A stretch of 64,000 nucleotides of DNA. Source: an uncultured Clostridia bacterium. GTDB lineage: Bacteria; Bacillota; Clostridia; TANB77; CAG-465. Below, one piece after another: positions 3,286 through 20,485 of the stretch. Below the pieces are notes generated by a model. That model saw nothing but the letters and a program-made list of their open reading frames with translations. It had not been told where the DNA came from and did not search any database. Every line of letters starts with the position of its first letter. The stretch's first letter is position 1. Position numbers and translations under genes: made by a program. The stretch lies in NCBI GenBank assembly GCA_944388585.1, contig CALXJI010000005.1:96012-160011 (forward strand). The letters run 5' to 3'.

Positions 3286-4247
3286 TTATAATTTTAAGAG
3301 AAATTTTTCAAACACATATTTTAAATAATCTGTTACATTTGATTTTGATACATTGTTATTTGCTACTATATTACTTTCACCTATTTTTTCATTAGTTGCT
3401 TTATCAAAAATCTCAACTTTTCCAACTACTTGATCTATTTCTATTGGACTACTTAATCCTTCATTATATGTAATCACTTGCTCTGTTTCTATATTTTGAC
3501 CTTTATTTAATAATGAATAAACGTCATTTTCTATTCTTGTTTCTAGTTTATCTTTTACATTTTTACTTACTGTAATTTGATCTAAAATTGTATTTGATGA
3601 ACATATTTTTTTGGTTTCATAAGTAGAGAAGCCATAATCAAGTAATGTTTTTGTTTCTTCTGTTCTAATATCTGATGTTGGAGCTTTCATAACAACACTA
3701 ATAAACGTAGTATCGCCTCTTGTAGCGGTAGCAACTAAATTATATAATGCATTCGATGTATATCCAGTTTTTAATCCTGTTGCTCCATCATAATATCTTA
3801 TAAGCTTATTAGTACTACTAAGTCCAAATTCTCCATTTCTTAAAGTGTCCATCCAAATTGATGTATAATTTAAAATATTAGGATGTTTGGTTATTAATTC
3901 CCTAGACATTATTGCTATATCTTTTGCACTAGTATAATGCCCTTCTTCATCTATTCCATGTGAATTCATAAAATGTGTATTTTCCATACCTAACTCTTCC
4001 GCCTTAGCATTCATCATATTTACAAAATTTTCTTCACTTCCACCAATAAGTTCTGCCATAGCTACTGTTACATCATTTGCTGATACTACACATATAGCTT
4101 TTAGTGCATCATCTATTGTTATTTGTTCTCCTTCTTTAAACCAAATTTGCGAACCTCCCATTTCAGATGCTTTTTTACTACATGTTACAGTATCATCATA
4201 TGAAAGTCCACCATAATCTATTTGCTCCATTATTAAAAGCAATGTCA
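3286..4247 (-). CDS. D-alanyl-D-alanine carboxypeptidase (PBP5/Dac family), 3' part of a gene interrupted by the inserted element
   Basis: Begins mid-domain at (M)KVMTLLLIMEQID and contains the SxN motif (SAN) and the KTG motif (LKTGYT). The N-terminal signal peptide and SxxK motif are found 16 kb away at 20593..20862. Confidence 0.8.
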
Positions 4248-5926
4248 TAACCTTCATTATCGCCAGTCAAAAGACACTTCTTTGGACTATTTTTTTGGGC
4301 TTTTAAAAAGCCCAATTTAAAGTTAATCTCATCTATTTCATCAAATTTAAAATAAATTTGTAGTTTTACATTTTTTCTATTATTATCTATTTTTGTAACT
4401 ATTATCTTATCTACTAATAGTTCTAAATATAAATCTAAGTTTTCTCTTTTACTTAAATCTAACTCATCAACTATAACTTTTTTTAAATTTTCTATATACT
4501 TATCAAAGTTTTTCATTTCTTCTTTTTTTTGCTCGTTTTCTTTAACTTTTTCTTTTAAGTTATTTAATTCTATATTTAATTTGTCATTTCTTTCTTTAAA
4601 CTCTTCATCATCTATATAACCATTTAAGTTAAGATTTAATAACTTTTCTTTTTTATTGCTCACATTTTGCATCTTTTTTTCTAAATTAGTATATTCATTA
4701 TTAATCTTTAAGTCTAAATTATTTTTTTGATATATATTTAATAATTTATTTATTATTTTATTTTTATTCATTTCAAATTTAGAAAATACACTTTTAATAA
4801 TTTCATATAGTTCTTCTTCTAACAAAATTGGACTTGCACAAACTTTTACTCCACCATTATCATATCTAGCACATACCCAAACTGGTCTACATTTTCTTTT
4901 TGGTCCAGCTGACCTAATAAAATTGGTTTGGTGTTCACTACATATTAATTTTCCACTAAATCCATATCTATTAGAAAATTTACTTTTATCTGGATTATTT
5001 TCATAAAATTTTTTACTTCTTTTTTCAAAAATCTCATTAGCTTTATTCCAAAGTTCTTCACTCACAATTGGTGGCACTATACTCTCATCATCACATTTTT
5101 TTACTATCCAATCTTTTCTATCATTTCTTACTTGCTTGGAACTCCTATAATCTAATTTAGAAGTAGTATTTGAACAATAATATCCTTTATATTTAGGATT
5201 AACCAAACATCTTTTTAAATTTGTTGGACTAATACGAGTATTATTACTAGTCTTATATCCATTTTCATATAATATGTGTGATATTTTTTCAAATCCATAC
5301 TTGCCAGTAGCATATAGTTCAAATAGTTTTCTTACAACTTCTGCTTCTTTTTCATCTATAACAAGTTTTCCTTTATCTTTTACATATCCACGAATATTAT
5401 TGTTCCCCAATACTCTATTTTTTTCAACAGACCTTTTAAGACCAAACCTTACTCTTTCTGATAGCTTTCTTACTTCATCTTGTGCTATACTTGCCATTAT
5501 TGCAAGTCTTAATTCTGAGTCTGGTAGTATTGTATTTATGTTATCTGTCTCGAAGTACACTCCCACATTTCTTTCTAAAAGTTCTCTAGTATATTTTATA
5601 CTATCTAAAGTATCACGAGCAAATCTACTTATTTCTTTCGTAAGAATTAAATCAAATTTATCTTTTTTTGAGTCTTCAATCATATTTAAAAAATCTTCTC
5701 TTTTTTTTGTACTAGTTCCACTTATTCCCTCATCAACATATCCTTCAATATATGTCCAATTCGAAACACTTTTGATTTTATTTTCATAGTAAAACTTTTG
5801 ATTTTCTAAAGAATTTAGTTGATTTTCTTTTTCAGACGATACTCTTGCATAAAAAGTAACTCTTAAATTCAAGTCATATATGCTTTTACCTGACATCAAT
5901 TCTTTTCTTAGATTTGCAAAGCTCAT
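4196..5926 (-). CDS. Large serine recombinase (resolvase catalytic domain + recombinase domain + zinc ribbon + coiled coil)
   Basis: N-terminal YARVSSEKENQ catalytic serine motif; DEGISGTS; recombinase domain; Cys-rich zinc ribbon; K/E-rich coiled coil. The last ~16 codons and the stop lie in host dac-derived DNA beyond the GTCAT core. Confidence 0.9.
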   Translation of the reverse strand: MSFANLRKELMSGKSIYDLNLRVTFYARVSSEKENQLNSLENQKFYYENKIKSVSNWTYIEGYVDEGISGTSTKKREDFLNMIEDSKKDKFDLILTKEISRFARDTLDSIKYTRELLERNVGVYFETDNINTILPDSELRLAIMASIAQDEVRKLSERVRFGLKRSVEKNRVLGNNNIRGYVKDKGKLVIDEKEAEVVRKLFELYATGKYGFEKISHILYENGYKTSNNTRISPTNLKRCLVNPKYKGYYCSNTTSKLDYRSSKQVRNDRKDWIVKKCDDESIVPPIVSEELWNKANEIFEKRSKKFYENNPDKSKFSNRYGFSGKLICSEHQTNFIRSAGPKRKCRPVWVCARYDNGGVKVCASPILLEEELYEIIKSVFSKFEMNKNKIINKLLNIYQKNNLDLKINNEYTNLEKKMQNVSNKKEKLLNLNLNGYIDDEEFKERNDKLNIELNNLKEKVKENEQKKEEMKNFDKYIENLKKVIVDELDLSKRENLDLYLELLVDKIIVTKIDNNRKNVKLQIYFKFDEIDEINFKLGFLKAQKNSPKKCLLTGDNEGYDIAFNNGANRLWWTFI

Positions 5927-5949
5927 ATTAATTTTCCTCCAACTTTTGT

Positions 5950-6120
5950 ATAAATTTAACTACTTTTTGAAACTAGACTAAGTTCCTCTAGTATTTTATT
6001 ATTAGCATAAATATACATTTCGTAGGTTATATAATTTTTTTCATATAATCTTCTGTTAATTTTTTCTTCAATTTTCAACTCGTTCTTTTCATCTGTTAAT
6101 ATATTTAATTTATCTTTCAA
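5950..6120 (-). CDS. Small ORF (56 aa, TTG start, RBS AGGAGTGG) immediately upstream of and co-oriented with the recombinase gene; candidate regulator or directionality factor
   Basis: Own translation gives MKDKLNILTDEKNELKIEEKINRRLYEKNYITYEMYIYANNKILEELSLVSKSS. It ends 21 nt before the recombinase RBS GGAGG. Below the ORF-track size cutoff. Confidence 0.3.
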
Positions 6121-6214
6121 TATAACCACTCCTAGTTAAATCTTATTAAAGTTTATTATTTTTATTCTAATATAAAAATTATATTATATATATCCATATA
6201 TAGTTTTTTATTTT

Positions 6215-6305
6215 TGTACATTTTGTACATTGGTCTTATAAGTATTGGTACATAAACATTTGTTGTATTACATACATTTGTATCAATGTACAAATAAAAT
6301 GTACA
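6215..6305. repeat. Cluster of TGTACA hexamer repeats (iterons or operators) directly 3' of the primase-helicase gene
   Basis: TGTACA or GTACA at 6215, 6224, 6247, 6287 and 6300, plus CATACA and GTATCA variants. The reverse-complement arrangement tgtacaaaatgtaca recurs at 20428-20441. Confidence 0.5.
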
Positions 6306-9131
6306 TTAATCACAATTAGGTGGATTAGTTCCATAAGGTTGTAATTCTAAATATGGAACTTTATCTTTTTTTACTGCCCATACTATTTCCGTTTTATCTC
6401 TTGAAGTAGGACCTGGCATTTTCTTTCTAATAGTTGCTCTATCACTACCAACTTTTAAATATCCCTCATCTGATAAATGTTTTTGAAGTCCAGTTTTATT
6501 TATAGGAAATTTTATACCTTGTTGTGCATAAAACTTAGATACTTCATTTAGTACAGTTTCTGGGAAAAAATAATAATAGTTATTGTACTCATCTTTTGTT
6601 TCATCTACAAAACCTATAAGAGTTTTATTTTTATTATCTGTTAAATAAGACTCTTGCCAGTTTCTAACTATATATATTTTTCCGGTATTTTCAAGTTGAC
6701 TTATAGCATTAAAAAACATACTTATAGGTTTATTATCTTGTATTTTTAAAGTTTGCTCATTTGCTACAAAATTTAAAATATCCCAACTTTCTTTAAGTAG
6801 TTTCTCTTTATCTTGTTCGCTTATTATCTCATAAGATATTAGAAAGCTAATAAATAATTCATAAGATATTTGTAAGAAACATATTATTTCCGCGGTTCTC
6901 CCATGTAATAAATTATTTGTAATATCATTTCTATATTTTTCAAATTTATCCTTAGCATTATTTTTAATCTTATCAATGTTTGCTATTAGAACTTTAATAT
7001 ATTGTTTCATTGCATAAGATAATTTGTCTTTATTTCTTTGAAGTATAGTTAGTTTATCTAAATCTATACTATCTTTTTTTAAATCAATAATAAAACATCT
7101 AGCTAAACGGCTTTCTGATACCTCTGGAAATGATTCGCCAGTTACTAAACATAGACCTCGTGCTTTATAAGATTTTCTTAAAGTAACATCTACATTTAAT
7201 CTACCTCTAGCACTTCTGTCGCCATAGATAGCTATAACTTTTTCAAGAGTGTTTTTCATCTTTTTAGCCTCATTTGTTTCTGTACTAGGGTAGTAATCAT
7301 CTAATACTACCAAAGTGTCTGCTAATAAGTTACTTCTAACCTCAATACTATTTATTGTGTCTTTGCAACTGCATACAAAGCTATCTTTATCAAATCTACC
7401 AAAATGACAATTTAATAAAGCCGATAATGAACTCTTTCTACTACCACTTACTCCTACAACTGCAATTAAAAAATCTGGTACAATTCCTAAATCATCTAAT
7501 GATGACACTAAAGGAGCTAGATATGTAAAAGCAAATAATGGTAAGGTTATCTTTTTATCTGCTACATCTAAAATGCTATATGATAGTTGCAAACACTCTT
7601 TCAAATCATATTCTTGATTTGTAAATTCATATCTAACTAAACTATCATCAAGATTAACTTTTATAGTATCATCTCCACCAATATTTCCATTGTTGTACAA
7701 ATATACATACTTATCATTTTGTTTTATAAAACCAGTATGTGTATATACAACTTCTTTCTGCATATTTTTAGATACTATTTGTGTAACTTCACGAAGTTTA
7801 TCCTTATTACTTACTCCTGCATTTACTATTGGCGACATATCCCAAGTATTGTTTATTAACCATTTCATAGAGGTAAAATCTTCAATTTTTACTTCAATTT
7901 CATCTAATACATCACCATTACTCAAAACTGCTTTAATTTTATATACTGCTGATTTCTCTCCATTTCCATTATCATATATAATTACTTTACTTATAATTGG
8001 AACAAAATTAGATATTTTCTCTTTCTTTTCATATAGGCCATCTTCTGCAAAGACATAATTACTATTTTCTAGTAGTTCAATGTCCTTTTGATAATCATTA
8101 GGAATACTAGAGTTAGCTTTCTTTTTAACTTCTTTTTCTTTTACTTTTATTACATCTAGCTTATAAAAAATATCACTTTCATAAGCTATTGCTTTACCAC
8201 CAAAAAACATACTTGCCAAATTTGTTGGCTTAGAATCAGGATAGAATATACTTAGCTTGTCTAACAAATAATTAATAAAGCCTTTTGCTATTTCATAATC
8301 TGTTATTACTTCATTTAGTATATATACTAACCTCATCTTATGTTGTTTCTCGCTATGACTAAAACTATAATATGCAAATGTAGGTAATAGATTTATTTGT
8401 TTACAATAGTCAATAATCTTCTCTATTGTAATATGTCTTTTATCATCAGTAGTAAAATTTACTTTCTTTCCATTTTCTTCAATAGCATTATCTATATCTA
8501 TCATATATAGTTGTTGTCCTTTAAAATTTTCTTTAGCATTACCTTTAATACCTGATGGTATAGTTGTTTTTCCTAAAACAATGTTTTGTTTTATTTCATC
8601 TAGTGTATAGCCCTTAAATTGATTTTCATTAATCCTATTTTTTATACCTCCAACTTCATAACCTTGAGGCTTTGTAGAAAATTCAACTTCATCAAACATA
8701 CAAACTATTTTGTCTATTTTTTCTGCCACACTTACTTTAATAGCATTCTTAGATTTTGAATTATTTTGATTGGACTTCCTTTTAGATGTTGATTTACTAT
8801 ATGTAATATTATCATCTATTTGAAAATCTTTTTTAATAATATCAATAGCTTGTTCTTTAGAAACATTTTTATATCTTGCAACAAAATCTACAATATTTTT
8901 ACCAATAAAATTCTTATCTCCAAAATCACTTATATACTTATCTGATACACTAAAAGATGGGTTGGAATCCTTTCTAAATGGACTACTGTAGGCGATACTA
9001 TCGCCTCTAGCTATACCTTCTCCTAAATAATGTTCTACAACTTCTTTATTATCTAGAATACTACACAATTCTTCTATACTCACTTTTCTACCTCCTTTTA
9101 TTAAAAAGGAAACACACTTGATTTTTCGCAA
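6306..9131 (-). CDS. Replication protein: primase-polymerase (degenerate CHC2 zinc-finger-like N-terminus, DxD prim-pol motif) fused to a P-loop NTPase/helicase-like domain
   Basis: SSPFRKDSNPSFSV resembles the DnaG CHC2 motif CPFHxExTPSFxV but with Cys and His replaced. LYMIDIDNA prim-pol signature. Variant P-loop VVGVSGSRKSS. Size and architecture match Pri-Rep proteins of integrative elements. Confidence 0.55.
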   Translation of the reverse strand: MRKIKCVSFLIKGGRKVSIEELCSILDNKEVVEHYLGEGIARGDSIAYSSPFRKDSNPSFSVSDKYISDFGDKNFIGKNIVDFVARYKNVSKEQAIDIIKKDFQIDDNITYSKSTSKRKSNQNNSKSKNAIKVSVAEKIDKIVCMFDEVEFSTKPQGYEVGGIKNRINENQFKGYTLDEIKQNIVLGKTTIPSGIKGNAKENFKGQQLYMIDIDNAIEENGKKVNFTTDDKRHITIEKIIDYCKQINLLPTFAYYSFSHSEKQHKMRLVYILNEVITDYEIAKGFINYLLDKLSIFYPDSKPTNLASMFFGGKAIAYESDIFYKLDVIKVKEKEVKKKANSSIPNDYQKDIELLENSNYVFAEDGLYEKKEKISNFVPIISKVIIYDNGNGEKSAVYKIKAVLSNGDVLDEIEVKIEDFTSMKWLINNTWDMSPIVNAGVSNKDKLREVTQIVSKNMQKEVVYTHTGFIKQNDKYVYLYNNGNIGGDDTIKVNLDDSLVRYEFTNQEYDLKECLQLSYSILDVADKKITLPLFAFTYLAPLVSSLDDLGIVPDFLIAVVGVSGSRKSSLSALLNCHFGRFDKDSFVCSCKDTINSIEVRSNLLADTLVVLDDYYPSTETNEAKKMKNTLEKVIAIYGDRSARGRLNVDVTLRKSYKARGLCLVTGESFPEVSESRLARCFIIDLKKDSIDLDKLTILQRNKDKLSYAMKQYIKVLIANIDKIKNNAKDKFEKYRNDITNNLLHGRTAEIICFLQISYELFISFLISYEIISEQDKEKLLKESWDILNFVANEQTLKIQDNKPISMFFNAISQLENTGKIYIVRNWQESYLTDNKNKTLIGFVDETKDEYNNYYYFFPETVLNEVSKFYAQQGIKFPINKTGLQKHLSDEGYLKVGSDRATIRKKMPGPTSRDKTEIVWAVKKDKVPYLELQPYGTNPPNCD

Positions 9132-9284
9132 ATCTTATCATATAATATAATAGAAATGTAAAATAAAAGTGCATTTCCATAATTTTTTGAGTTGAAAGAA
9201 TTTTTTAGGGGCCTAATCTATAAAATTCTTTCTATTTTTTATATTATCAAACAAAGGTTTGTTTGTACATATTTCAAGTGATTT

Positions 9285-9881
9285 TTAAACAACAAAGTAA
9301 TCTTCACATTGACTAACATCTATTTCTCCCTCTTCAAGTTTGGCTACTTCTTGAAGTGTTGAAACATCTCCCACAAAATAGAAAATGTTATCTTCAAGTT
9401 GATTAAACTCACTTGAAGGTTGATATATAGTTGATTCTTGGGGAGTTGTAAGCTCCCAAAAACCAACTTTATATGAGTCATCAACTTTTACTCTACCTAT
9501 TTCTCTAAAAGAGTTGTATACCCTACGCATTCCACATCTATTGGAATACTGTAAAACTTCGCCATTCTTTTTAAAATATCCCAAGGAACTAACAATAGTT
9601 CCAGGAGTTATAGAATTGTCGCTATATCCATAGACTATGACTATTTGTCCATTAGCGAACTTCAATTTTAGTCTTGGAAGCTCGTTAGGGCCCATATCTT
9701 TTTTCTCTAGGAATACAGCAATATTTTCTGTAACTCTTACATATCCCTCATCAGTTTTTACTAATAATAGTACATCTTGATTTTGTTGTACTGCTTCAGC
9801 TTTTATTTGCTGAAATCTTTCTATTATAGGCTTATACATGCCTATCACTCCTTTCTTTTTTACAATATACACTTTTTTCAA
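9285..9881 (-). CDS. Hypothetical protein (198 aa)
   Basis: Long ORF with coding-like composition; no recognisable motif. Confidence 0.45.
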   Translation of the reverse strand: MKKVYIVKKKGVIGMYKPIIERFQQIKAEAVQQNQDVLLLVKTDEGYVRVTENIAVFLEKKDMGPNELPRLKLKFANGQIVIVYGYSDNSITPGTIVSSLGYFKKNGEVLQYSNRCGMRRVYNSFREIGRVKVDDSYKVGFWELTTPQESTIYQPSSEFNQLEDNIFYFVGDVSTLQEVAKLEEGEIDVSQCEDYFVV

Positions 9882-10098
9882 TGTGCGACTTACAAGTAGC
9901 TTAAATTGCTATTGTAACTTTTATTATTTCGTAGTATAATATTTATATATTTTTACTACGCATATCACGTGATAAAACAATTATAAGCGACAAAAACCTT
10001 GAAGTCAATGCATTTTCTTTGAATTTGTTAAAGTGTAGGAGTAGTAAAAAATGTTGAAAAAAGTGAATTTTTTTACTACGCAATTTAGGAGGAAAAAG

Positions 10099-11262
10099 AT
10101 GTATATAAATATAATAGATAACAAAACCTATACAAATGATTTAATTATAAGCGAAGTGAAATATGGTACAGCACTTATTGATTTTTTAAATACAGATTTA
10201 ACAGACTATATTACAAAAATCACAGAATTTTCTGGAAAGTTTATTTATGAAAATGAAAATGAAATAAAACCTTATAATGTTGATTATAAAAATAATGATA
10301 TTACTAGTTACCCAAACTGTTTAGATGCATATAGTTACTTATGTAAATATGTTAGATTTATAAGAACAATTAAAAGCAGTTGCAAATATGTTAATCTGCA
10401 TATTAATGAACTAGAAGAAAATTTAAAGGAAGTTGCAAAATATGATATAGATGAATTTAATAAAAGTATTACTAATACTAGTCCTAATATGAACGAAACT
10501 ATACATAGCTATGTTAAATATCTGATAGAATATTTAATACTTTGTCAAAAAGCATTGAAGAAAGCAGTTTATTATATACTTGATGTCAATAACACAAATC
10601 TAAATGATTTATCATTAAACAAAAGACTAGCTTACTTCCAATGTAAAAATGATTTAAGTAACTTACATATTATATTAACATATATGACTGAACAAGAATT
10701 ACTAGATATGATATTTATAAATAATAAAATTAATGTTTCTGATAATACTTTTGTTTTTAAAGAAAAAGATAACCTTATAGGACTCTCAGATAAGCAATTA
10801 CTAAACAGAATAAAAAGCTCTAATGTATCTATTAGTTATAATAAATATTTTAGAACTATAAAAGAACTAGGCATTTTTGAAATTGAACAAATGATTTTGA
10901 ATAAAACACAAGTAAAAAGATGTGAATTTTGTAATAATTACTTTATTTCTAAAGACAAAAAGAAAAAAACTTGTAGTACTATTTGTGGAAAAAAAGTCAA
11001 TTATCAAAAGACTAAGCAAGATGAACTACAAAACTTATATAACAGAACTTTGGAAAGTATGCAAAAAGGTATGAAAAATAATAAAGATAAATACGAACCT
11101 GTAAAAGAATATTTTAAATCGGTATATAATAGTGTAAAGGAAATGAATAAAAATTCTAATGAAATTAAAAAATTTAAAAAAATGTGTGTAGATATAAAAG
11201 CAAAAACACCTAAATATAATTATAGTGTTGATTATTTAAAAAATCTATGGGAAAAGGAATAG
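10099..11262 (+). CDS. Hypothetical protein with C-terminal CxxC...CxxC zinc ribbon (start moved to ATG 10099 after AGGAGG)
   Basis: CEFCNNYF...CSTICGKK near the C-terminus. The only long plus-strand gene in this part of the element. Confidence 0.5.
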   Translation: MYINIIDNKTYTNDLIISEVKYGTALIDFLNTDLTDYITKITEFSGKFIYENENEIKPYNVDYKNNDITSYPNCLDAYSYLCKYVRFIRTIKSSCKYVNLHINELEENLKEVAKYDIDEFNKSITNTSPNMNETIHSYVKYLIEYLILCQKALKKAVYYILDVNNTNLNDLSLNKRLAYFQCKNDLSNLHIILTYMTEQELLDMIFINNKINVSDNTFVFKEKDNLIGLSDKQLLNRIKSSNVSISYNKYFRTIKELGIFEIEQMILNKTQVKRCEFCNNYFISKDKKKKTCSTICGKKVNYQKTKQDELQNLYNRTLESMQKGMKNNKDKYEPVKEYFKSVYNSVKEMNKNSNEIKKFKKMCVDIKAKTPKYNYSVDYLKNLWEKE

Positions 11263-11314
11263 TGGTATGACTATTCCTTTTTATACCGTATGTCAAAACT
11301 AATCATTTTTCCAA

Positions 11315-12016
11315 CTAATTTTTTCCACAATTTTTTTGTTCTAAGAGTTGCACAACAATGTCTGGATATGAATTTTGCATTTGAATAATACTACTATATT
11401 GAAGTTCAACCATTTCAAATTTTTTTGAATCTTCTATTTGTTCACCAAATACTAATTTGTATATTTTAATTATAATATTATGAGCATAATCTAATAAAAT
11501 AGGAATTTCATTATATGCAGGTATTTCATCAGCTTTAAAACTTTTTATTCCCAAATCATAAGATTTATCCAAATGTGCAACATTTTTATCCCTCAAGGTT
11601 TTAAGATTATCTAAAGCTTTCATATTTTCCAATTTTTCTAATTCAGATTTAGCATATTTTATTATTTCTGAATTTTTTTTATTAAGAAGTTTATTACATT
11701 GAACACAATTTAACATATAAAATACTGTAATTGAATCATTACTAGAGTCATTATCATAAATTTTAGCTAATTTCATAAATAAAGAGTATTGTAATCCATC
11801 AATGACAGAACAATAGTACTCTTTATATTTAGGCATTTTACTAAAATCCATACACATTCTATCAAATAATAAATATTGTGATTTAGCAAAAAAAATCTCT
11901 CTATATAGCAAGTCAACTCTCTTTTTAAACTTGTCTATTTCACATTTTTGAATTTTTGTTTTAGTTTCTTCCATAATACTCACGCCGAATTTATATATTC
12001 GACAGCCTCCTCTCAT
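11315..12016 (-). CDS. Hypothetical protein with a HEPN-like Rx4-6H motif (RDKNVAH); possible Abi-like cargo
   Basis: Predominantly alpha-helical; RDKNVAHLDK fits the HEPN catalytic motif. Start ambiguous (M1 or the internal MEETKTK). Confidence 0.35.
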   Translation of the reverse strand: MRGGCRIYKFGVSIMEETKTKIQKCEIDKFKKRVDLLYREIFFAKSQYLLFDRMCMDFSKMPKYKEYYCSVIDGLQYSLFMKLAKIYDNDSSNDSITVFYMLNCVQCNKLLNKKNSEIIKYAKSELEKLENMKALDNLKTLRDKNVAHLDKSYDLGIKSFKADEIPAYNEIPILLDYAHNIIIKIYKLVFGEQIEDSKKFEMVELQYSSIIQMQNSYPDIVVQLLEQKNCGKN

Positions 12017-12366
12017 TTTTGGTTATATTTTACCATATTATATTTTTTTGAACAACTTTTTACAAAAATAAAAAATATATATAACAATAGTTAAAAAATA
12101 AGTGTTACTGTTTTTATCTTATAACTAGGTAAGATAGCAACACATTTTTTTATATCATATTTTATTTTTCCAATTGGATTTAAAAATCATACTCAATGTA
12201 TCACATTAGAAATTCTGATTTATTCAAAGAAAATGTGTTATTTGTTTATATTTCAATACTTAGAAAGCATTTTATAAAAATAACTTTTAGTAAATGTAAT
12301 AAAAAATATGTACGAATTACATTCAATGTATTATAATGTATAAAAATTTAAGGAGATGTATGTAGT

Positions 12367-12936
12367 ATGAATTTAGTAGAACCAATTAGAGATTTGAACA
12401 AAATCGAAGAAATGAAAAAAGTATTATTAGAACAAGGAAAAGGCAAAAGAAATTATCTTATTTTCAAAGTAGGTATAAATATTGGTATAAGGGTATCAGA
12501 TATTATAAAGCTTAAAGTAAGTGATATTAGATATGAAAATGGTACTATGCGAGATGACATTACAATTATAGAAAAGAAAACAAATAAAAAGAAGACATTT
12601 AGATTTAATATCGAATTAAAAAAAGAACTAGAAGATTACACTAAACAAATGCAACAATATGAGTATATTTTTAAAAGTAGGAAAGGAGCTAATCAACCTC
12701 TTACGCGCACGCAAGTATATAGATTTCTTAATGATGCAGCAAAAATGGTTGGTATCACTGATAGTATAGGAACTCACACTATGAGAAAGACCTTTGGTTT
12801 CCACAACTATAAAAAATATGCTGATGTTGCTATGTTGCAAACAATATTTAATCATAGTAGCCCTAGTATCACACTTCGATATATAGGTATATCACAAGAT
12901 GAAATCAACAATATGTATGATGACTTTTGCTTATAA
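12367..12936 (+). CDS. Short tyrosine recombinase, FimB/FimE-like (catalytic domain only, 189 aa)
   Basis: KRNYLIFKVGINIGIRVSDIIKLKVSDI parallels FimB ARNYCLTLLCFIHGFRASEICRLRISDI. HxxR box in GTHTMRKTFG. His and Tyr in FNHSSPSITLRY. Confidence 0.8.
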   Translation: MNLVEPIRDLNKIEEMKKVLLEQGKGKRNYLIFKVGINIGIRVSDIIKLKVSDIRYENGTMRDDITIIEKKTNKKKTFRFNIELKKELEDYTKQMQQYEYIFKSRKGANQPLTRTQVYRFLNDAAKMVGITDSIGTHTMRKTFGFHNYKKYADVAMLQTIFNHSSPSITLRYIGISQDEINNMYDDFCL

Positions 12937-12967
12937 GTTAATATAATTTTATATCTTAATAATAAAA
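12930..12967 (+). repeat. 38-bp repeat copy A (cttataagttaatataattttatatcttaataataaaa), followed directly by aaaagtgtctt (12964-12974), which matches the element end-arm motif
   Basis: Near-identical (3 mismatches) to 20232..20269. The 18-bp core taatataatttaatatct also occurs at 17781..17798. Confidence 0.6.
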
Positions 12968-13011
12968 GTGTCTTAAAATATAAATATGAATATCACTTTT
13001 AGACAAATTAG

Positions 13012-13055
13012 TCAAAAAATGAGAGTAGTACCATAGTATTACTCTCATTTATTCT
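13012..13055. terminator. Bidirectional rho-independent terminator between convergent genes
   Basis: aatgagagta - 12-nt loop - tactctcatt, a perfect 10-bp stem flanked by A-run and T-run. Confidence 0.6.
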
Positions 13056-13066
13056 ATGTAATAAGC

Positions 13067-13603
13067 TTAAAAATTTGATGAATTTAAGCGATTTATCACA
13101 TTTTCTTTTTTTATATCTACAACCTCTTTATAAGTAATTCCATCAGCATTAGGTGCAAATCCATAATAAAACTTACTTCCATACAATTTTTTTAGTGTTT
13201 GATTTGTTGTAGTACATTCTACAATATAAATTCCATTTACCTCTTCAATTGTTTTAACTGTAAGTTCATTCTCTCTACACTCTTCTCCTAAATACTGTCT
13301 TGCATGATTCTCTGCCCAATATCTATTTTCTTGTAATGGAGTAGGAAAGAAAATAGGTTGCACAATAAATTTCCAACCACAAAATATAAAAATAATAACT
13401 ATAATTATATAAATAATTAATCCTTTTGTACTTGAATTATTTGTCACATTATTATTATTATTATCTTCTTCAACATTGAGTTTATTTTCAACATTTTGTT
13501 CAACATTACTATTATTTTCTTCATTTTTACTTATAGTTTGTCCACACTTATCACAAAATTTACTATCATCATCAATTTGACTTCCACAATTTTTACAATA
13601 CAT
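13067..13603 (-). CDS. Zinc-ribbon (CxxC...CxxC) membrane-anchored hypothetical protein
   Basis: MYCKNCGSQIDDDSKFCDKCG N-terminus, an Asn-rich linker, one TM helix and a C-terminal globular domain. Confidence 0.5.
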   Translation of the reverse strand: MYCKNCGSQIDDDSKFCDKCGQTISKNEENNSNVEQNVENKLNVEEDNNNNNVTNNSSTKGLIIYIIIVIIFIFCGWKFIVQPIFFPTPLQENRYWAENHARQYLGEECRENELTVKTIEEVNGIYIVECTTTNQTLKKLYGSKFYYGFAPNADGITYKEVVDIKKENVINRLNSSNF

Positions 13604-13620
13604 AACCTTTCAACCCCTTT

Positions 13621-14655
13621 TTAATTTTTATATTCTTTATTTTCAATAAATAAGTCTAATATTCTTTCTAATTCTTCCATTAGATTTAATAAATCACTAA
13701 CTTTATATTCTTCACTTAATTTTATCTTTGCTAAAATCATTGACTCATTAGCTTGTCTTTTATTAAATTTTTCAAACTTTATATTACTTTTATTTGAAAA
13801 ATATTTTTCTATTTTATCTTGTAATTTATTTCTTTCATCTTCATTATATTTTAAATTACCATTTTCTTTATTTTCAAAGCGACCTCTAATTCTTAATTCA
13901 TATTTACTTTTATTTATATTTGTTTCAAGATATAAATAATCTAAGAAGTAATTCTTATCTAATCCTCTTATATACCAAGTATAAAATACACTACCTCTAA
14001 CTCTACCAACACCACATTTATTTATTTCATTTTTTTCACTATGACTACAATATACATTTGGTAATTCATATTGTAGATATTGTTCCATACTAATTTCTTT
14101 CAATGAAAACTTTTTAATATTCTTACACTTATATTCTATCAAACTTAAATAATTGTAATAATCAATGTAAATATCATTTTTTATATGATAATTTTCCATT
14201 ATTTCAAGCATAAACTTTCTATCAATTAATACATCTACATCAATTTGATTTGGTTCATAAAACATCTTATAATATGTAGTTATTATATTTTCTTCCTTTA
14301 TTCCTTTATTAATTAATTTATTTTTATATTTGTTTATTTGATTACTATGTTCTGAAGTTAGTTTCTTATCTTCAATTATAATGTATATTGTTTCATTATT
14401 TTCATTTTCAAAACTTATTAAAACATCTATATTTTTATCTTGTTTTAATATTTTTACATTATTATAATCATTGAACTTTAAATTTCTTTTAGTGTTTTTC
14501 TTATTATACTTTTCTATAATTTTATCTAAAAACTTTTTTGATACTTCATACAATTCTGAATTTTCTTCTTTGTGATTAATCCACTCTACCAACCAACAAA
14601 TAAAAGCATCTTGACTAAGCTCCTTAGTCGCATATTTGAATATGTTATTTTCCAT
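13621..14655 (-). CDS. Hypothetical protein, candidate PD-(D/E)xK nuclease fold
   Basis: NIDVLISF ... IYIIIEDKKLTSEHSNQ gives a D...ExK arrangement. RBS GGAGG at 14662-14668. Confidence 0.35.
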   Translation of the reverse strand: MENNIFKYATKELSQDAFICWLVEWINHKEENSELYEVSKKFLDKIIEKYNKKNTKRNLKFNDYNNVKILKQDKNIDVLISFENENNETIYIIIEDKKLTSEHSNQINKYKNKLINKGIKEENIITTYYKMFYEPNQIDVDVLIDRKFMLEIMENYHIKNDIYIDYYNYLSLIEYKCKNIKKFSLKEISMEQYLQYELPNVYCSHSEKNEINKCGVGRVRGSVFYTWYIRGLDKNYFLDYLYLETNINKSKYELRIRGRFENKENGNLKYNEDERNKLQDKIEKYFSNKSNIKFEKFNKRQANESMILAKIKLSEEYKVSDLLNLMEELERILDLFIENKEYKN

Positions 14656-14675
14656 ATAAAAACCTCCTCATATTA

Positions 14676-14692
14676 TATGACAATATGTCATA
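14676..14692. promoter_or_regulatory. Palindromic operator candidate TATGACA-ata-TGTCATA in the divergent promoter region
   Basis: 7-bp perfect inverted arms between the RBS of 13621..14655 and the XRE gene. Confidence 0.4.
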
Positions 14693-14763
14693 CTAATTAT
14701 ACCAATTTTCAACTTTTTTTACAACCCTTTTATTGTTATAATTTAATAAAAGGAGTAGATAGA

Positions 14764-15132
14764 GTGGATAAAATAAAGAAAAACAAAGAAATTTCACCCA
14801 AAAAGAATTTACAAAAAATTAGGGAAGATAATCATTACTCACAAAGAAAAGTCGCTGAAGATAATAATACTTATCAAGAAGTTATATCTAGGTTAGAGTC
14901 TGGAACTAGGACTTCAAATATTGAGTTTATAATGCAATTAGCTAACTATTTTCATTGCTCTACAGACTATCTTTTAGATTTAACAAATGACCCAACTCCA
15001 ATATCTATTTTATCTTCTAAAAGTGATTTAAGCGAAAAAGAAAAGTATATTTTAAGAGAATATAATTCTTTAAGTGATGATAACAAACTAAGATTAGAAG
15101 GCATATTAATTGCATTAAAAAGCATACAATAG
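14764..15132 (+). CDS. XRE-family helix-turn-helix transcriptional regulator (GTG start after AAGGAG)
   Basis: LQKIREDNHYSQRKVAEDNNTYQEVISRLESGTRTSNIEFIMQLANYFHCSTDYLL is a classic HTH_3. The upstream part of the track ORF overlaps the convergent gene and lacks an RBS. Confidence 0.7.
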   Translation: MDKIKKNKEISPKKNLQKIREDNHYSQRKVAEDNNTYQEVISRLESGTRTSNIEFIMQLANYFHCSTDYLLDLTNDPTPISILSSKSDLSEKEKYILREYNSLSDDNKLRLEGILIALKSIQ

Positions 15133-15249
15133 TGTAATAATACTTTTGTATGCTTCTTTTTTCTCCTTTATATCTTAAATTAACTTTCTACTAATAGATA
15201 TAAATTTATATAACTAAGTATAGAAAGTTCTTCTAAATAAAACCTCATT

Positions 15250-15600
15250 TCAATGGTTATTATTTAATTTTATAAAGTTATCAAAAAATATCTTAAACAC
15301 TTTTTCATTATCTATCTCATAAAAGTAATCTATAAAATCATATTCCTTATTATAACTATCTTTCTTAAATATACCAACAATATTTATAGCGAAAAAACCA
15401 CTATGTGTGTTAAAAAATTCTTTTACTACTTTTTCTTTTATATCTCCAATAATACATAAGAATAGTGGAGGTATATTATAGTTTAAATCTTTAAGTTCAT
15501 CACTATATACAATTTTTACATTATCATTTAAAACTATATCTTTTATTATTTCTTTACCAAATACTCCTAATGGAATTACCACTATATCTTGAATTTTCAT
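15250..15600 (-). CDS. Hypothetical protein (116 aa), 4-bp overlap with the upstream gene
   Basis: ATGA overlap coupling with 15597..15974. Confidence 0.45.
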   Translation of the reverse strand: MKIQDIVVIPLGVFGKEIIKDIVLNDNVKIVYSDELKDLNYNIPPLFLCIIGDIKEKVVKEFFNTHSGFFAINIVGIFKKDSYNKEYDFIDYFYEIDNEKVFKIFFDNFIKLNNNH

Positions 15601-15974
15601 CTCTCCTTTTTTATTTCATAAACAATAAATTTTACATTAAGTACAATACTAATACCCTCTAATATTCTAAATGTTTCATTATTTGTTCTTTCCTTAAATC
15701 TATTATTGTTTTTAATTTTAGATAGGTTAATTATTACTATACTATTATTAAAGTTTTTTAGTTCTTTTATTAAGTTATCTAATTTATATGTAGTAAAATA
15801 TTCAACATTATCTTTACCATAAAATATATCATCATCTTTATATAACAATACTTTTGAAGTAGGTAGGTTAAATTCTTTTCTTATAATATCTACATCTTTC
15901 TTTTCCTTATCAAATATTTCCATTTTATATATACTTTCCTTTTTAATTCCTACATCTAACAAAAATAACCCCAT
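15597..15974 (-). CDS. Hypothetical protein (125 aa)
   Basis: Operon partner downstream of the HTH-WYL-like gene. Confidence 0.45.
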   Translation of the reverse strand: MGLFLLDVGIKKESIYKMEIFDKEKKDVDIIRKEFNLPTSKVLLYKDDDIFYGKDNVEYFTTYKLDNLIKELKNFNNSIVIINLSKIKNNNRFKERTNNETFRILEGISIVLNVKFIVYEIKKER

Positions 15975-16071
15975 AATGAGCCTCCAAACTTATTTATTTA
16001 GAGTATATCATTTTGAAGTTATTTTGTATATGAATTTTATACTATGAATTTTTCGCTGGTCTAAAAATGTA

Positions 16072-16761
16072 TTACTTATTTTTTTCTTCATCTAAAAACT
16101 CACACTCTTCATCTAAAATTTTTATATCTTTCATACTACTTAATAAAATTCCAATATTATTATTGAGTGTATTATTTGTTCCTATAACTATATAATTAAA
16201 AGGTGTAAGTACTTTAAATTTCCTATACACAATATATTGTGGAGAGTATATAATATTCTTTCCATTATGTATAAATTGTATCTTTTTCTTTTCTTCTATT
16301 GCTTGTGAAACTATTTCTAAACTATTTACTAATTCCCAATTCTTTGTTTTTTGTTCTTTCATTTTTGCTATATTTGATTTTAGTTTTTCTCTATCAAATA
16401 TATTAATTTGTTTTTCTAATTTATTTACCAAAAGATTTGATGTTTCTTCATTTATATCATTAGCTAACTTTATTTGATTTATAATCATAATAATTTCTCC
16501 TAATGTGAAGTCTATATCTATATTTTTAATATAATAATAACCTTTGCGATTATCATTATATGTAGATATATCATAACCAAACTTTTCTATAAGTAAGTTT
16601 ATATTTCTTCTTATAGTTCTACTATCTATATTTACATCATAATCTTTCTTTATCAATTCTTTTATATCATTACAACTTAATATGTGTTCATCATCACTAT
16701 ATTTTTTTAGTGTATTCAACACATATAGTATATTTCCTTTATTTTCATTTCCTTTTTCCAA
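16072..16761 (-). CDS. Putative transcriptional regulator, N-terminal HTH (HTH_11-like) plus C-terminal WYL-like domain (BrxR/CapW-like architecture)
   Basis: ILYVLNTLKKYSDDEHILSCNDIKELIKKDYDVNIDSRTIRRNINLLIEKFGYDI fits the DeoR/HTH_11 pattern. C-terminal IQFIHNGKNIIYSPQYIVYRKFKVLTPFNYIVIG is WYL-like. Confidence 0.4.
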   Translation of the reverse strand: MEKGNENKGNILYVLNTLKKYSDDEHILSCNDIKELIKKDYDVNIDSRTIRRNINLLIEKFGYDISTYNDNRKGYYYIKNIDIDFTLGEIIMIINQIKLANDINEETSNLLVNKLEKQINIFDREKLKSNIAKMKEQKTKNWELVNSLEIVSQAIEEKKKIQFIHNGKNIIYSPQYIVYRKFKVLTPFNYIVIGTNNTLNNNIGILLSSMKDIKILDEECEFLDEEKNK

Positions 16762-16827
16762 TTAAACCACCTTTCTATATTATACAAAATTAGTTTGTAA
16801 ATCACAAGTAACAAGAGTAACACTTAT

Positions 16828-17061
16828 TTATAACATACCTTTTCTATTTAAAGTTCTTACAATTTCACTTCCTAAACCTGTTCTTAAAGTTTTAAATATA
16901 GAATTAAAATATATACTCTCTTTTCTATATTTGGTATAGATATAGTCATTACAATTACTCTTATGAGTTTCAATATATAGTTTTATTCTCTTTTGAATTT
17001 CACTATTTTGTGGAATATTACTTAGTATTATTTCTACAATATCTAAATCATCTTCTCTCAT
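16828..17061 (-). CDS. Hypothetical protein (77 aa)
   Basis: 4-bp overlap with the upstream ORF. Confidence 0.4.
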   Translation of the reverse strand: MREDDLDIVEIILSNIPQNSEIQKRIKLYIETHKSNCNDYIYTKYRKESIYFNSIFKTLRTGLGSEIVRTLNRKGML

Positions 17062-17387
17062 AGTAGTCTCCTTTTTAAATCAAATCTTTCCATATACTTC
17101 TTTATTTTTTCTTCACTTAAAGATATAGTCTCTCCATTTTCTTGACCTACCACTAAAAAATCTCCAACTATAATATCTCCAAATTCATATAAAACTAAAT
17201 TAGGAGATAGACTTAATAATTTACCCTCATCATTTATAATAATATCTACATCATCTTCTAACTCTACAATATCTATTAGACCACCTACATACTTTTGTAG
17301 AGTAGATAGGTTATTTTCTATCTCTATTACTTTTGGTTGTTCAAACACTTTTACTAAAATACATCTTAATTTTTCCTTTTTACTCAT
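17058..17387 (-). CDS. Hypothetical protein (109 aa)
   Basis: RBS-preceded ORF; first gene after a 465-bp repeat-rich intergenic region. Confidence 0.4.
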   Translation of the reverse strand: MSKKEKLRCILVKVFEQPKVIEIENNLSTLQKYVGGLIDIVELEDDVDIIINDEGKLLSLSPNLVLYEFGDIIVGDFLVVGQENGETISLSEEKIKKYMERFDLKRRLL

Positions 17388-17853
17388 TTTTTATCTTCCT
17401 TTATCATAAATTTAAACTTTTTATTCCATTGATTCCATATTAAACCTAGATTAAATTTTATATCTTTTTATATTAGTTATATATCTTTAATACAAAAGTT
17501 TCTTTAAATTAAACCTAGATTATCACTTTTGAAAAACAATTAAAATATGGTATTAATACTAAAAAATGACCCACATAGAGTCTATCTCTATATGAGTCTA
17601 TCTACTAAAATATACAACAAACTAAAATCTACTACCACTATAAACACCACCTTTAAACTTAAAACTAAACCTCTTATCTTAGTATAATTTTAAATTGTGA
17701 TTTTTCAAAAGTACATACTTTTTCTTTAAGTTTTAGAAAGTTTTAAGTGGGTGTCCATTTAAAGAACTTTACCTATTAAGTAATATAATTTAATATCTAT
17801 AAGTAGAAAGTTCCTTAGGATTAAATCTGGAATTAGTGGGTTATATTTAAAGT

Positions 17854-18045
17854 TTAATTCTCTCCTTTATTGTATTGGAATAAATATCTACTTTTTATAA
17901 ATTCATCTAAATCATCTTCTCTAATCATAAAACCTTTACCCATATAGATAGCTTTTAGTTTCTGCTCTGCAATATAACTTCTTATAGTGTGAGGTGTTAC
18001 TTTTAAAATGTCTGCTACTTCTTTTACTTTGTAAATATTAGTCAT
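17854..18045 (-). CDS. Excisionase-family / MerR-like HTH DNA-binding protein (63 aa)
   Basis: VKEVADILKVTPHTIRSYIAEQKLKAIYMGKGFMIREDDLDEF matches the excisionase-family DNA-binding pattern. Confidence 0.6.
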   Translation of the reverse strand: MTNIYKVKEVADILKVTPHTIRSYIAEQKLKAIYMGKGFMIREDDLDEFIKSRYLFQYNKGEN

Positions 18046-18121
18046 TGTGTTATCACTCCTTTTATTTAGATATACTTAATATATATCTTTCATATAAATA
18101 TATAGAAAGTGTGATAAAATC

Positions 18122-19696: not shown

Positions 19697-19802
19697 AGTA
19701 ATTAACTCCTTTACTTAAAATAAACTAAAAGTATATACACTTTCTAAGTAAATATATATAATTACTATCAAAAAATTAATAAAATGACACTTTTTAAATT
19801 GT

Positions 19803-20120
19803 TTAATCTTCCTTATTCTTATTATTTTCAAATACTTCACACATTAGAGTAATGCCGGTAGTAAGTCCATCTCTAAAATATAAGTTATCCATAAAAGAAT
19901 TTCTTGCATTAGACATATCCATATAATCTTTTACACAATTTAGTATATTATCATAATCCTTTTTATCTATTGTGTCTTTTAAATACTTATATCTTTTTTC
20001 TAATTTTTCTCCAAATTCATTATAATCTTTTCTTTCATATTTAGTCATCGAAGGTAACCTGCCCTCTAATACATCAAATAGTTGTTGTAAAATTTTTTGT
20101 TCTTCAACTCCATTTTCCAT
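19803..20120 (-). CDS. Hypothetical protein (105 aa)
   Basis: First gene of the long minus-strand operon inside the element's right end. Confidence 0.45.
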   Translation of the reverse strand: MENGVEEQKILQQLFDVLEGRLPSMTKYERKDYNEFGEKLEKRYKYLKDTIDKKDYDNILNCVKDYMDMSNARNSFMDNLYFRDGLTTGITLMCEVFENNKNKED

Positions 20121-20231
20121 AATGTAAATTCTCCTTTCTATGAGGTAAATTATATATAGTTGGAATAGAGAAGTACATATTTTTTCTACATTTTATAAAA
20201 TTGATTCCACATTTAATTGTGGAGTATTTTA

Positions 20232-20269
20232 CTTATAAAATAATATAATTTAATATCTTAATAATAAAA
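20232..20269 (+). repeat. 38-bp repeat copy B (cttataaaataatataatttaatatcttaataataaaa)
   Basis: Direct repeat of 12930..12967. Confidence 0.6.
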
Positions 20270-20349
20270 ATTAACTAGAATTAAACCTCATTAACTCTAG
20301 TTATATTTTTAATTAAATATTTGTATATAAATTTATAAGAAAATATTTG

Positions 20350-20441
20350 TGTACATTAAAATACATTAGTTGTACAAATATATGTATATTAGATTTTATT
20401 TATTTTTATATAGTTTGAAGTTACTTAGTACAAAATGTACA
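20350..20441. repeat. Second cluster of TGTACA hexamers, in the promoter region of the 19803..20120 operon
   Basis: TGTACA at 20350, 20371 and 20436, GTACA at 20428. gtacaaaatgtaca is the reverse complement of tgtacattttgtac at 6215-6229. Confidence 0.5.
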
Positions 20442-20485
20442 AAAAAATTTATATATTATTTTATATTAATATATATAAAAAAAAG

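What the first reader, a model, noticed from the sequence alone, without database searches (positions are those of the whole stretch)
6130..9131. Primase-polymerase/helicase gene with a degenerate CHC2 zinc finger, followed directly by TGTACA iterons: candidate replication module and origin
The 941-aa protein has SSPFRKDSNPSFSV where DnaG-type primases have CPFHxExTPSFxV, so the Cys and His ligands are replaced. It also has a prim-pol DxD motif (LYMIDIDNA) and a variant P-loop (GVSGSRKSS). Directly after its stop codon (6306) lie at least five TGTACA or GTACA hexamers at 6215-6305, starting with the tandem pair tgtacattttgtaca at 6215-6229. The reverse-complement arrangement gtacaaaatgtaca recurs at 20428-20441 inside the other end of the element, and a single TGTACA sits at 9265-9270. 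A rep gene followed by iterons is the layout of SaPI/PICI-type satellites and integrative plasmids. It suggests the element can replicate on its own after excision. The TGTACA sites could instead be operators for an element repressor, since both clusters lie in promoter regions of minus-strand operons.
Basis: partly seen in the sequence, partly recalled or inferred. Interest (0 to 1): 0.6.

Follow-up and report, generated by a model that had tools for sequence, protein, structure and literature searches.

The report
Mobile element primase-helicase plus origin
A 16-kb mobile element lodged inside a cell-wall gene of a gut Clostridium carries one large gene that fuses a DNA primase to a replicative helicase, followed at once by short repeated DNA sites that look like the element's own replication origin; the design is already known from staphylococcal SaPI and SCCmec islands, but the primase half is a new flavour.

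Summary

From the base after the stop codon, TGTACA hexamers lie 2 + 2 around a 57-bp spacer. This is the most hexamer-repetitive 100 bp in the window. Eight of twelve related lineages, and helicase-only relatives including an archaeon, show the same layout (two units, spacer, two inverted units) at the same place, with different unit sequences. In a 91% relative the array stays with rep while the integrase module is swapped. This matches the published SaPI/SCCmec origin design.

I read the array as the element's Rep-bound origin (confidence about 0.65). An operator role is the main rival. A second, inverted paralogous copy lies near the other element end (20350-20441). Known kind, new variant.

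The parts
6306..9083 (-). rep gene: 925-aa fused primase / initiator-helicase (GTG start, TAA stop at 6306-6308)
   Evidence: ORF and RBS. The homologue P0001 is called at 925 aa. Full AlphaFold model has mean pLDDT 79.8.
8799..9083 (-). N-terminal DnaG-type zinc-binding-domain fold without zinc ligands (residues 1-95; SSPFRK at 8970-8987, ISDFGDK at 8913-8933)
8130..8762 (-). AEP (primase-polymerase) domain, residues 108-318; DID 8490-8498, SHSEKQHKMR 8331-8360, YPDSK 8229-8243
6729..8111 (-). Cch / SaPIbov1-Rep-type MCM-like helicase body (N-terminal beta domain, AAA+ core with Walker A 7431-7454 and Walker B 7296-7301, helical region)
6309..6728 (-). C-terminal domain with a winged-helix pattern (helix 841-853, helix 863-872, strands 885-889 and 897-905); candidate origin-binding domain
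   Evidence: Secondary structure of the model. It is 98% identical between the window and L015, which share the array; this is the most conserved segment. The role is inferred from the Cch2 and SaPI Rep C-terminal domains (PMC7581432, PMC9371898).
6211..6308 (.). Array 1: TGTACA units at 6215, 6224 | 57-bp spacer holding degenerate copies (GGTACA 6247) | 6287, 6300. Candidate origin iterons
   Evidence: Conserved, together with rep, in L008, L014 and L015.
6130..6210 (.). Very A+T-rich block (11% G+C, lowest 0.7% of 80-bp windows) next to array 1; candidate unwinding region and/or promoter of the small-ORF/recombinase operon
   Evidence: Weak promoter-like site at 6196-6169.
20348..20445 (.). 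Array 2: inverted paralogue of array 1 (TGTACA 20350, 20371 | 50-bp spacer at 12% G+C | AGTACA 20427, TGTACA 20436), 160-250 bp from the right element end
   Evidence: Identical in L187-L189.
9264..9269 (.). Single TGTACA about 180 bp upstream of the rep start; possible autoregulatory site, not significant on its own
   Evidence: Present at the equivalent place in L008, L014 and L015.
4196..6129 (-). 57-aa ORF (5956-6129) and large serine recombinase (4196-5926) immediately downstream of array 1, at the left element end
   Evidence: Pfam Resolvase + Recombinase + Zn_ribbon_recom. The same layout is seen in L008 and L193.
4249..20603 (.). The roughly 16.35-kb integrative element that carries the module; it splits a Peptidase_S11 gene, with GTCAT at both junctions
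   Evidence: Pfam on 3286-4257 and 20593-20862. Junction sequences.

Best explanation
The gene encodes the element's self-contained replication initiator. Its C-terminal winged-helix domain is proposed to recognise the TGTACA units that start right after its own stop codon. The Cch/SaPIbov1-Rep-type MCM-like ring would load there, probably as two hexamers, one on each pair of units, and melt the adjacent A+T-rich DNA. The N-terminal AEP domain would lay down primers, assisted by a zinc-free DnaG-type template-binding domain. A host polymerase would then extend those primers. After the large serine recombinase excises the 16-kb element from the dac gene, the circle could replicate. Shown here: the three-domain identity of the protein, the non-random array, and the recurrence of the array layout in relatives. 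Inferred: binding of Rep to TGTACA, melting, priming, and actual replication. Array 2 would be a second Rep-binding site. In the circle it lies on the other side of the recombinase operon and attP. A regulatory or cis-replication role, like crr of phage P4, is speculation.

For: Array. The probability of the cluster by chance is about 1e-5, and it is the top-ranked 100-bp window of 64 kb.

Comparative evidence.
- Right after the stop codon, 8 of 12 full-length lineages carry two units, a spacer, then two inverted units. The unit sequences have diverged: TGTACA; ATGTAATTT; GTGTAAAAGGTGTAAT; AATGTGATTTGT; AATGTAACTTATGTG; TGTAGTTTGTGTAAA.
- The inverted-repeat scores are in the top 4% of background windows for 7 of 9 lineages and in the top 0.6% for 5.
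- Unit spacing differs between the two arms (9 vs 13 bp here; 18-19 vs 9 bp in L007 and L025). Selection therefore acts on the units, not on base pairing.
- Helicase-only relatives show the same arrangement, including a Methanotrichaceae genome with AGGGATA x3 / TATCCCT x3 / AGGGAT x3.
- In L015 (rep 91% identical) homology runs through the array and stops at window position 6178, where a different integration module begins.
- The C-terminal domain is the most conserved part of the protein between these two (98%).

Literature. SaPI origins are 6-12 penta- or hexanucleotide iterons immediately downstream of rep, with at least 2 on each side of an A+T-rich centre pointing in opposite directions, and they are bound by the Rep winged helix (PMC9371898). 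In SCCmec the cch2-ccrC intergenic iterons are bound by the Cch2 C-terminal domain (PMC7581432).

Against the operator alternative: the element's XRE gene (14761-15132) has no TGTACA nearby.
Against: - No binding or replication data exist.
- The 57-bp spacer of array 1 is not A+T-richer than the genome (24.6% vs 25.7% G+C). The A+T-rich block lies beside the units, not between them.
- The same units recur at a second locus in two lineages: here at 20350-20441, and about 4.4 kb upstream of rep in L017, L021 and L034. A single TGTACA also lies upstream of rep. This pattern also fits a regulator's operators.
- Four of twelve lineages have no array after rep. L016, L018-20, L011, L026 and L030/31 have a terminator or an abutting gene there.
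- TGTACA is a palindrome, so unit orientation here rests only on the flanking bases.
- In L029 and L050 one unit overlaps a good -35/-10 pair.
Confidence: 0.65

Rival explanations
1. The TGTACA arrays are operators for a transcription regulator of the element, either Rep itself acting as a repressor or another DNA-binding protein. They would control the small-ORF/recombinase operon, the rep promoter and the DUF6809-DUF3846 operon. The origin, if there is one, would lie elsewhere.
For: The units occur in three intergenic places upstream of minus-strand genes. A 6-bp palindrome suits a dimeric HTH protein. In the GTGTAAT lineage the second cluster also sits at the head of the leftward DnaB_C/DUF3846 operon. 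In L029 and L050 a unit overlaps TTTACA-17-TATAAT. The element encodes XRE, HTH_17 and an HTH_11-like protein.
Against: There is no TGTACA near the XRE gene, where autoregulation would be expected. In L001 and L004 the region between the CI-like gene and rep carries different palindromes (TTGACA-N4-TGTCAA type), so the CI-like repressors probably read other sites. The array stays with rep when the downstream module is swapped. It is found after helicase genes in distant relatives. Promoter-like matches are at or below chance, and a terminator-like hairpin (20204-20225) lies between array 2 and the next gene.
Confidence: 0.22
2. The inverted arms form an RNA or DNA hairpin that acts as a transcription terminator or attenuator between rep and the recombinase operon, or as a single-strand initiation signal.
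For: The arms can pair: DNA fold -15.1 kcal/mol, z = -2.2 against shuffles. The position at the end of a gene fits. RepB', a structural neighbour of the AEP domain, uses hairpin ssi sites (RSF1010 biology is from my own knowledge).
Against: No terminator-like site is found at 5900-6400. No U-run follows the stem on either strand. The two arms differ in unit spacing (9 vs 13 bp), and only the hexamers are conserved. The loop is 51-57 nt. The z-score is modest, with 7 of 200 shuffles folding as well.
Confidence: 0.06
3. The module is a relic. The element is a domesticated gene-interrupting insert that only excises to restore the dac gene, and it no longer replicates. The arrays would then be vestigial.
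For: It sits inside a coding sequence, like sporulation-linked intervening elements (PMC5595907, PMC7192596). The zinc-binding-like domain diverges faster than the rest (70% vs 91-98% identity to L015).
Against: The 925-codon ORF is intact, and all catalytic residues are invariant across homologues of 37-42% identity. The element occurs in several samples and host backgrounds. Arrays 1 and 2 are both preserved.
Confidence: 0.07

Closest known systems
SaPI replication module (Pri, Rep, ori), especially SaPIbov1 Rep (PDB 8tch) and the fused SaPI5 PriRep (7ola)
   Different: The host is a Clostridium, not Staphylococcus. Only about 14% identity. The primase half is a zinc-free DnaG-type zinc-binding domain plus an unclassified AEP. 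There are only 4 perfect units. The A+T-rich block lies beside the units rather than between them. A second array exists. No packaging or interference genes and no Stl-type switch were detected. The recombinase is a serine recombinase rather than a tyrosine integrase.
SCCmec Cch / Cch2 - ori - Ccr locus
   Different: SCC elements pair the helicase with LP1413 or CCPol-MP (an A-family polymerase that acts as a primase). Here an AEP is fused to the helicase. SCC integrates at rlmH, whereas this element integrates inside a dac gene. The iterons here are palindromic hexamers in a 2+2 inverted arrangement rather than three direct pentamers.
Bacillota genomic islands with primase, then COG3378/DUF927 helicase, then large serine recombinase (Rice laboratory survey, PMC10061031)
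   Same: Same class of island, also reported in Clostridioides difficile and C. perfringens. That paper notes that DnaG- or AEP-family primases are often upstream of or fused to these helicases.
   Different: Those examples were chosen for Pol-SSB primases and insert in rlmH or ssrA. The zinc-free zinc-binding domain plus AEP unit described here is not among them.
Multidomain AEP proteins of mobile elements (PrimPol-PV1 supergroup: PrimQH, all3500 and others; PMC5862659)
   Same: An AEP fused to DUF927-type ATPases with a C-terminal winged helix proposed to recognise origins. Encoded by integrated elements. RepB' is a structural neighbour.
   Different: There the accessory domain (PriCT or a Zn-binding domain) follows the AEP. 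Here a DnaG-type domain precedes it and has lost its ligands. I did not test family assignment within the AEP superfamily.
Phage P4 alpha protein with ori and crr (from my own knowledge, not checked here)
   Same: One polypeptide combines primase, helicase and a C-terminal origin-binding domain. The same short iterons occur at two separate loci, both bound by the protein.
   Different: The P4 primase is Toprim-type and its helicase is SF3-type. A crr-like role for array 2 is speculation.
DnaG primase zinc-binding domain (PF01807; 1d0q, 2au3)
   Same: Fold and sequence-profile relationship of residues 1-95.
   Different: The C, H, C, C ligands are replaced by S34, R37, D53, D56/K57. There is no Toprim domain. 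The domain is fused to an AEP.

Membership tests
SaPI/PICI-type replicon (Pri-Rep-ori) | Initiator-helicase of the Rep type with a C-terminal winged-helix domain | tested here: met
SaPI/PICI-type replicon (Pri-Rep-ori) | Origin immediately downstream of rep: 6-12 penta/hexanucleotide iterons, at least 2 on each side of an A+T-rich centre, in opposite directions | tested here: inconclusive
   Four perfect and 1-3 degenerate hexamers start at the base after the stop codon, in a 2+2 arrangement. Opposite orientation is clear in relatives with asymmetric units. The centre is not A+T-enriched (24.6% G+C), and the 11% G+C block is adjacent instead.
SaPI/PICI-type replicon (Pri-Rep-ori) | Rep binds the iterons and the island replicates after induction | not testable with these tools
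   Needs EMSA or footprinting and copy-number measurement.
PICI (phage-inducible chromosomal island) as an element class | Packaging or capsid-redirection genes (terS, cpm, ppi) and a helper-phage-controlled master repressor | tested here: not met
   Pfam and PHROGs scans of the element's ORFs find none. An XRE gene exists, but nothing links it to a helper phage.
SCC-type element (cch/ccr) | Cch-like (DUF927, MCM-like) helicase next to large serine recombinase gene(s), with intergenic repeats | tested here: met
SCC-type element (cch/ccr) | Integration at the 3' end of rlmH (orfX) in staphylococci, with LP1413 or CCPol-MP partners | tested here: not met
   The insertion is inside a Peptidase_S11 gene of a Clostridium. 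No A-family polymerase or LP1413-like hit among neighbouring genes.
AEP (archaeo-eukaryotic primase) superfamily | AEP catalytic fold | tested here: met
AEP (archaeo-eukaryotic primase) superfamily | Motif I hhhDhD, motif II sxH, motif III hD (PMC5862659) | tested here: met
   LYMIDID (D196, D198), KQH (H248) and YPD (D283) are invariant in 14 sequences, in the expected order, and at strand ends of the model. Spatial clustering in the model was not checked.
AEP (archaeo-eukaryotic primase) superfamily | Match to a curated AEP sequence model (Pfam Prim-Pol and similar) | tested here: not met
   No Pfam hit at E<=10 for any of 9 members, and no PDB sequence hit. The only sequence-level hit is phrog_25531, 'unknown function'.
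DnaG-type primase | CHC2 zinc finger with Cys/His ligands | tested here: not met
   The fold and profile relationship are present, but the ligands are S34, R37, D53, D56/K57. They are lost in the whole clade, including the stand-alone proteins of about 316 aa.
DnaG-type primase | Toprim catalytic domain | tested here: not met
   No Toprim hit. The catalytic domain is an AEP. A distant relative of the helicase module (P0046) does carry a zinc-binding domain plus Toprim.

The most novel reading that the evidence does not exclude
The zinc-free DnaG-type domain and the AEP domain together form a previously undescribed chimeric primase unit. It occurs stand-alone (about 316 aa) or fused to a Cch-like helicase. 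A conserved Arg-Asp pair would replace the metal site. The element would use a two-site origin: array 1 after rep, plus an inverted paralogue that lies just beyond the recombinase gene and attP in the excised circle. This arrangement would couple replication or copy control to excision, in the manner of P4 ori/crr.
Probability: 0.2. Interest if true: 0.55.

Novelty: new variant of a known kind. Interest (0 to 1): 0.4.

Why it matters
It extends the SaPI/SCCmec type of self-replicating island (initiator-helicase, then iteron origin, then recombinase) to uncultured gut Clostridia and, for the helicase-plus-iteron layout, to an archaeon. It defines a small clade of primases that join a bacterial-type template-binding domain, now metal-free, to an archaeo-eukaryotic catalytic core. 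This is a concrete case of module swapping between the two primase families. It also gives experimentally tractable predictions: Rep C-terminal domain binding to TGTACA, and a minimal replicon at 6130-9290. A Clostridium-compatible minimal replicon could be of practical use. None of this overturns current understanding.

Tried and rejected
- Sequence-only searches for the middle domain (Pfam on 9 members, PDB profile) found nothing. Only fold comparison identified it.
- The single-sequence PDB search was empty.
- A metagenome scan with the 18-mer GTACAAAATGTACAAAAA returned 120 unrelated A+T-rich hits, none homologous to the element.
- Loci with identical or 97-99% identical DNA (L008, L014, L187-189) were too similar for footprinting.
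- A strict hexamer-recurrence statistic (at least 2 G/C) misses the A+T-rich units of most relatives, so the inverted-repeat score was used instead.
- Promoter and terminator consensus scans gave chance-level results.
- There are no Rfam families in the element and no DnaA boxes near the arrays.
- The XRE protein as the TGTACA reader: no sites lie near its gene.
- Arm-type recombination sites: serine recombinases do not use them, and array 1 is 2 kb from the att core.
- Intrinsic terminator: no U-run and unequal arms.
Full report
1. OBSERVATION

The minus-strand ORF 6306..9131 is real. Its likely start is the GTG at 9083, eight bases after AAAGGAGGT, which gives 925 aa. The 97%-identical homologue P0001 is called at exactly that length.

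TGTACA is not over-represented in the window as a whole: 18 copies against 16.2 expected. But four copies fall within 91 bp at 6215-6305. The Poisson probability is about 2e-8, or about 1e-5 after correcting for window number. No other 100-bp window of the 64 kb reaches five copies of any hexamer. The first unit abuts the stop codon (TAATGTACA). Three more copies, plus an AGTACA, lie at 20350-20441.

2. THE PROTEIN

Single-sequence searches say little. Pfam gives only a sub-threshold Zn_ribbon_DnaG hit (18.1 bits). PHROGs gives weak 'DNA primase' hits and an unknown family. The PDB sequence search gives nothing.

3. CONTEXT

The gene lies in a roughly 16.35-kb element (4249-20603). The element splits a Peptidase_S11 D-Ala-D-Ala carboxypeptidase gene inside its SxxK motif, and GTCAT is present at both junctions. 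A large serine recombinase (4196-5926) and a 57-aa ORF follow the array. Relatives keep the order (repressor or small ORF), rep, (xis or small ORF), integrase at the element end. The integrase is either a serine or a tyrosine recombinase. In L193 the primase (317 aa) and the DUF927 helicase (620 aa) are separate genes, followed by a small ORF and a serine recombinase.

4. THE ARRAYS

Array 1 consists of two units 9 bp apart (6215, 6224), a 57-bp spacer with degenerate copies, and two units 13 bp apart (6287, 6300).

Immediately after the rep stop codon, eight of twelve full-length lineages have the same plan: two units, a spacer, then two inverted units. The unit sequences differ:
- ATGTAATTT in L007 and L025
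- TTGTAAAAAGTGTGAT / ATTACACTTTTTACAA in L021
- GTGTAAAAGGTGTAAT in L023 and L034
- AATGTGATTTGT in L022
- AATGTAACTTATGTG in L024
- TGTAGTTTGTGTAAA in L001

Against 532 random 130-bp windows from the same loci, the best inverted-repeat score is in the top 4% for seven of nine lineages and in the top 0.6% for five. Arm spacings are unequal, so the short units are what is conserved, not the base pairing.

Helicase-only relatives show the same feature (L028, L029, L050, L040, and G/C-run arrays in Paenibacillus). The clearest case is a Methanotrichaceae genome with AGGGATA x3, TATCCCT x3 and AGGGAT x3 after the stop.

In L015 (rep 91% identical), homology runs through the array and ends at window position 6178, where a different integration module starts. 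The array therefore travels with rep. Between these two proteins the C-terminal domain is the best-conserved part (98%, against 70% for the zinc-binding-like domain).

5. COMPARISON WITH KNOWN ORIGINS

SaPI origins are 6-12 penta- or hexanucleotide iterons immediately downstream of rep, with at least two on each side of an A+T-rich centre pointing in opposite directions. The Rep winged helix reads them (PMC9371898). In SCCmec the cch2-ccrC intergenic repeats (AAGTG) are bound by the Cch2 C-terminal domain (PMC7581432). Primase, helicase and large-serine-recombinase islands are widespread in Bacillota, including clostridia (PMC10061031).

The present locus fits these designs with one deviation. 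The spacer of array 1 is not A+T-enriched (24.6% vs 25.7% G+C). Instead an 11% G+C block (6130-6210, lowest 0.7% of windows) lies beside the units.

6. WHAT DOES NOT FIT SIMPLY

Array 2 (20348-20445) is an inverted paralogue of array 1. The whole roughly 150 bp aligns, and its spacer is 12% G+C. It lies 160-250 bp from the right element end. In the excised circle it would therefore sit about 2.2 kb from array 1, on the far side of the recombinase operon and attP.

A second cluster also exists in the GTGTAAT lineage, about 4.4 kb upstream of rep, at the head of the leftward operon. It is absent from the sequence held for five other lineages.

This pattern, together with the single site upstream of rep, keeps an operator reading alive. 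Several points count against that reading:
- No TGTACA lies near the XRE gene.
- Different palindromes occupy the CI-like control region of relatives.
- Promoter-like matches are at chance level or absent.
- A terminator-like hairpin lies between array 2 and the next gene.

Hairpin or terminator readings are weak: z = -2.2, no U-run, unequal arms. There are no Rfam hits and no DnaA boxes.

7. VERDICT

The protein assignment is firm at the fold level. The origin assignment is a well-supported inference (about 0.65) and is not shown. This is a new variant of a known kind of module. The new points are the zinc-free DnaG-type domain joined to an unclassified AEP, and the duplicated array.

Noticed in passing
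window 3286-4257 and 20593-20862 (junctions near 4244-4248 and 20600-20604): The element interrupts a Peptidase_S11 (D-Ala-D-Ala carboxypeptidase) gene exactly in the SxxK active-site motif (ASVTKVMT | LLLIMEQ), with GTCAT at both junctions. Excision should restore the gene. This makes it a candidate case of regulated gene integrity, like the sporulation-linked intervening elements. The same insertion is seen in L008, L009 and L187-L189. I did not establish whether this dac gene is a sporulation gene.
   Followed up: partly
window 4196-4260: The serine recombinase ORF runs about 17 codons past the element boundary into dac DNA before its stop codon. Its C-terminal tail should therefore differ between the integrated and excised states. 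In the related element L001/L002, the recombinase is called at 587 aa on one contig and 568 aa on the other.
   Followed up: no
window 20330-20500 vs 6150-6320: Array 2 is a full inverted paralogue of array 1, not just a shared hexamer. Its spacer is very A+T-rich (12% G+C), so it fits the SaPI origin definition better than array 1 does.
   Followed up: partly
window 12367-12936 (+): A 189-aa protein consisting only of the Phage_integrase catalytic domain. Equivalent genes of 186-189 aa are conserved in related elements (L001, L007, L008, L193) that already carry a full serine or tyrosine recombinase. Its role is unknown.
   Followed up: no
window 11315-12016 (-): An AbiU2-type HEPN protein (Pfam E=1e-18), a probable anti-phage cargo gene of the element. 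Relatives carry other defence cargo (Hachiman-like HamA plus helicase, and restriction-modification genes, in L010).
   Followed up: no
rep residues 1-95 (window 8799-9083) vs L015: The zinc-free zinc-binding-like domain is only 70% identical between the window and L015. The AEP domain is 91%, the helicase 94% and the C-terminal domain 98% identical. This points to relaxed or diversifying selection on this domain.
   Followed up: no
L193 3392-8264; P0168-P0179: Stand-alone primases of about 316 aa with the same two domains (zinc-free zinc-binding domain plus AEP) exist. In L193 one is followed by a separate 620-aa DUF927 helicase, an inverted-repeat region, a small ORF and a large serine recombinase. 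This is the unfused version of the window's module.
   Followed up: partly
L042 7683-7900 (Methanotrichaceae MAG): An archaeal 931-aa relative of the helicase is followed by a textbook iteron field: AGGGATA x3, then TATCCCT x3 inverted, then AGGGAT x3. The rep-then-iterons layout therefore crosses domains of life.
   Followed up: partly
window 20204-20225 and 9190-9230: Two hairpins. One is a bidirectional terminator-like stem (ATTCCACA...TGTGGAGT) between array 2 and the DUF6809 gene. The other is a perfect 11-bp stem (GAAAGAATTTT / AAAATTCTTTC) between the 198-aa gene and rep.
   Followed up: no
phage and plasmid records H3-H6, H10-H11: The AEP domain alone has 29-34% identical relatives in Enterococcus phage Efs 1-1-1, in Bacillus phage Deep-Purple (annotated hypothetical) and in 31-37-kb Bacillus licheniformis plasmids. 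This AEP type is therefore also used by phages and small plasmids.
   Followed up: no
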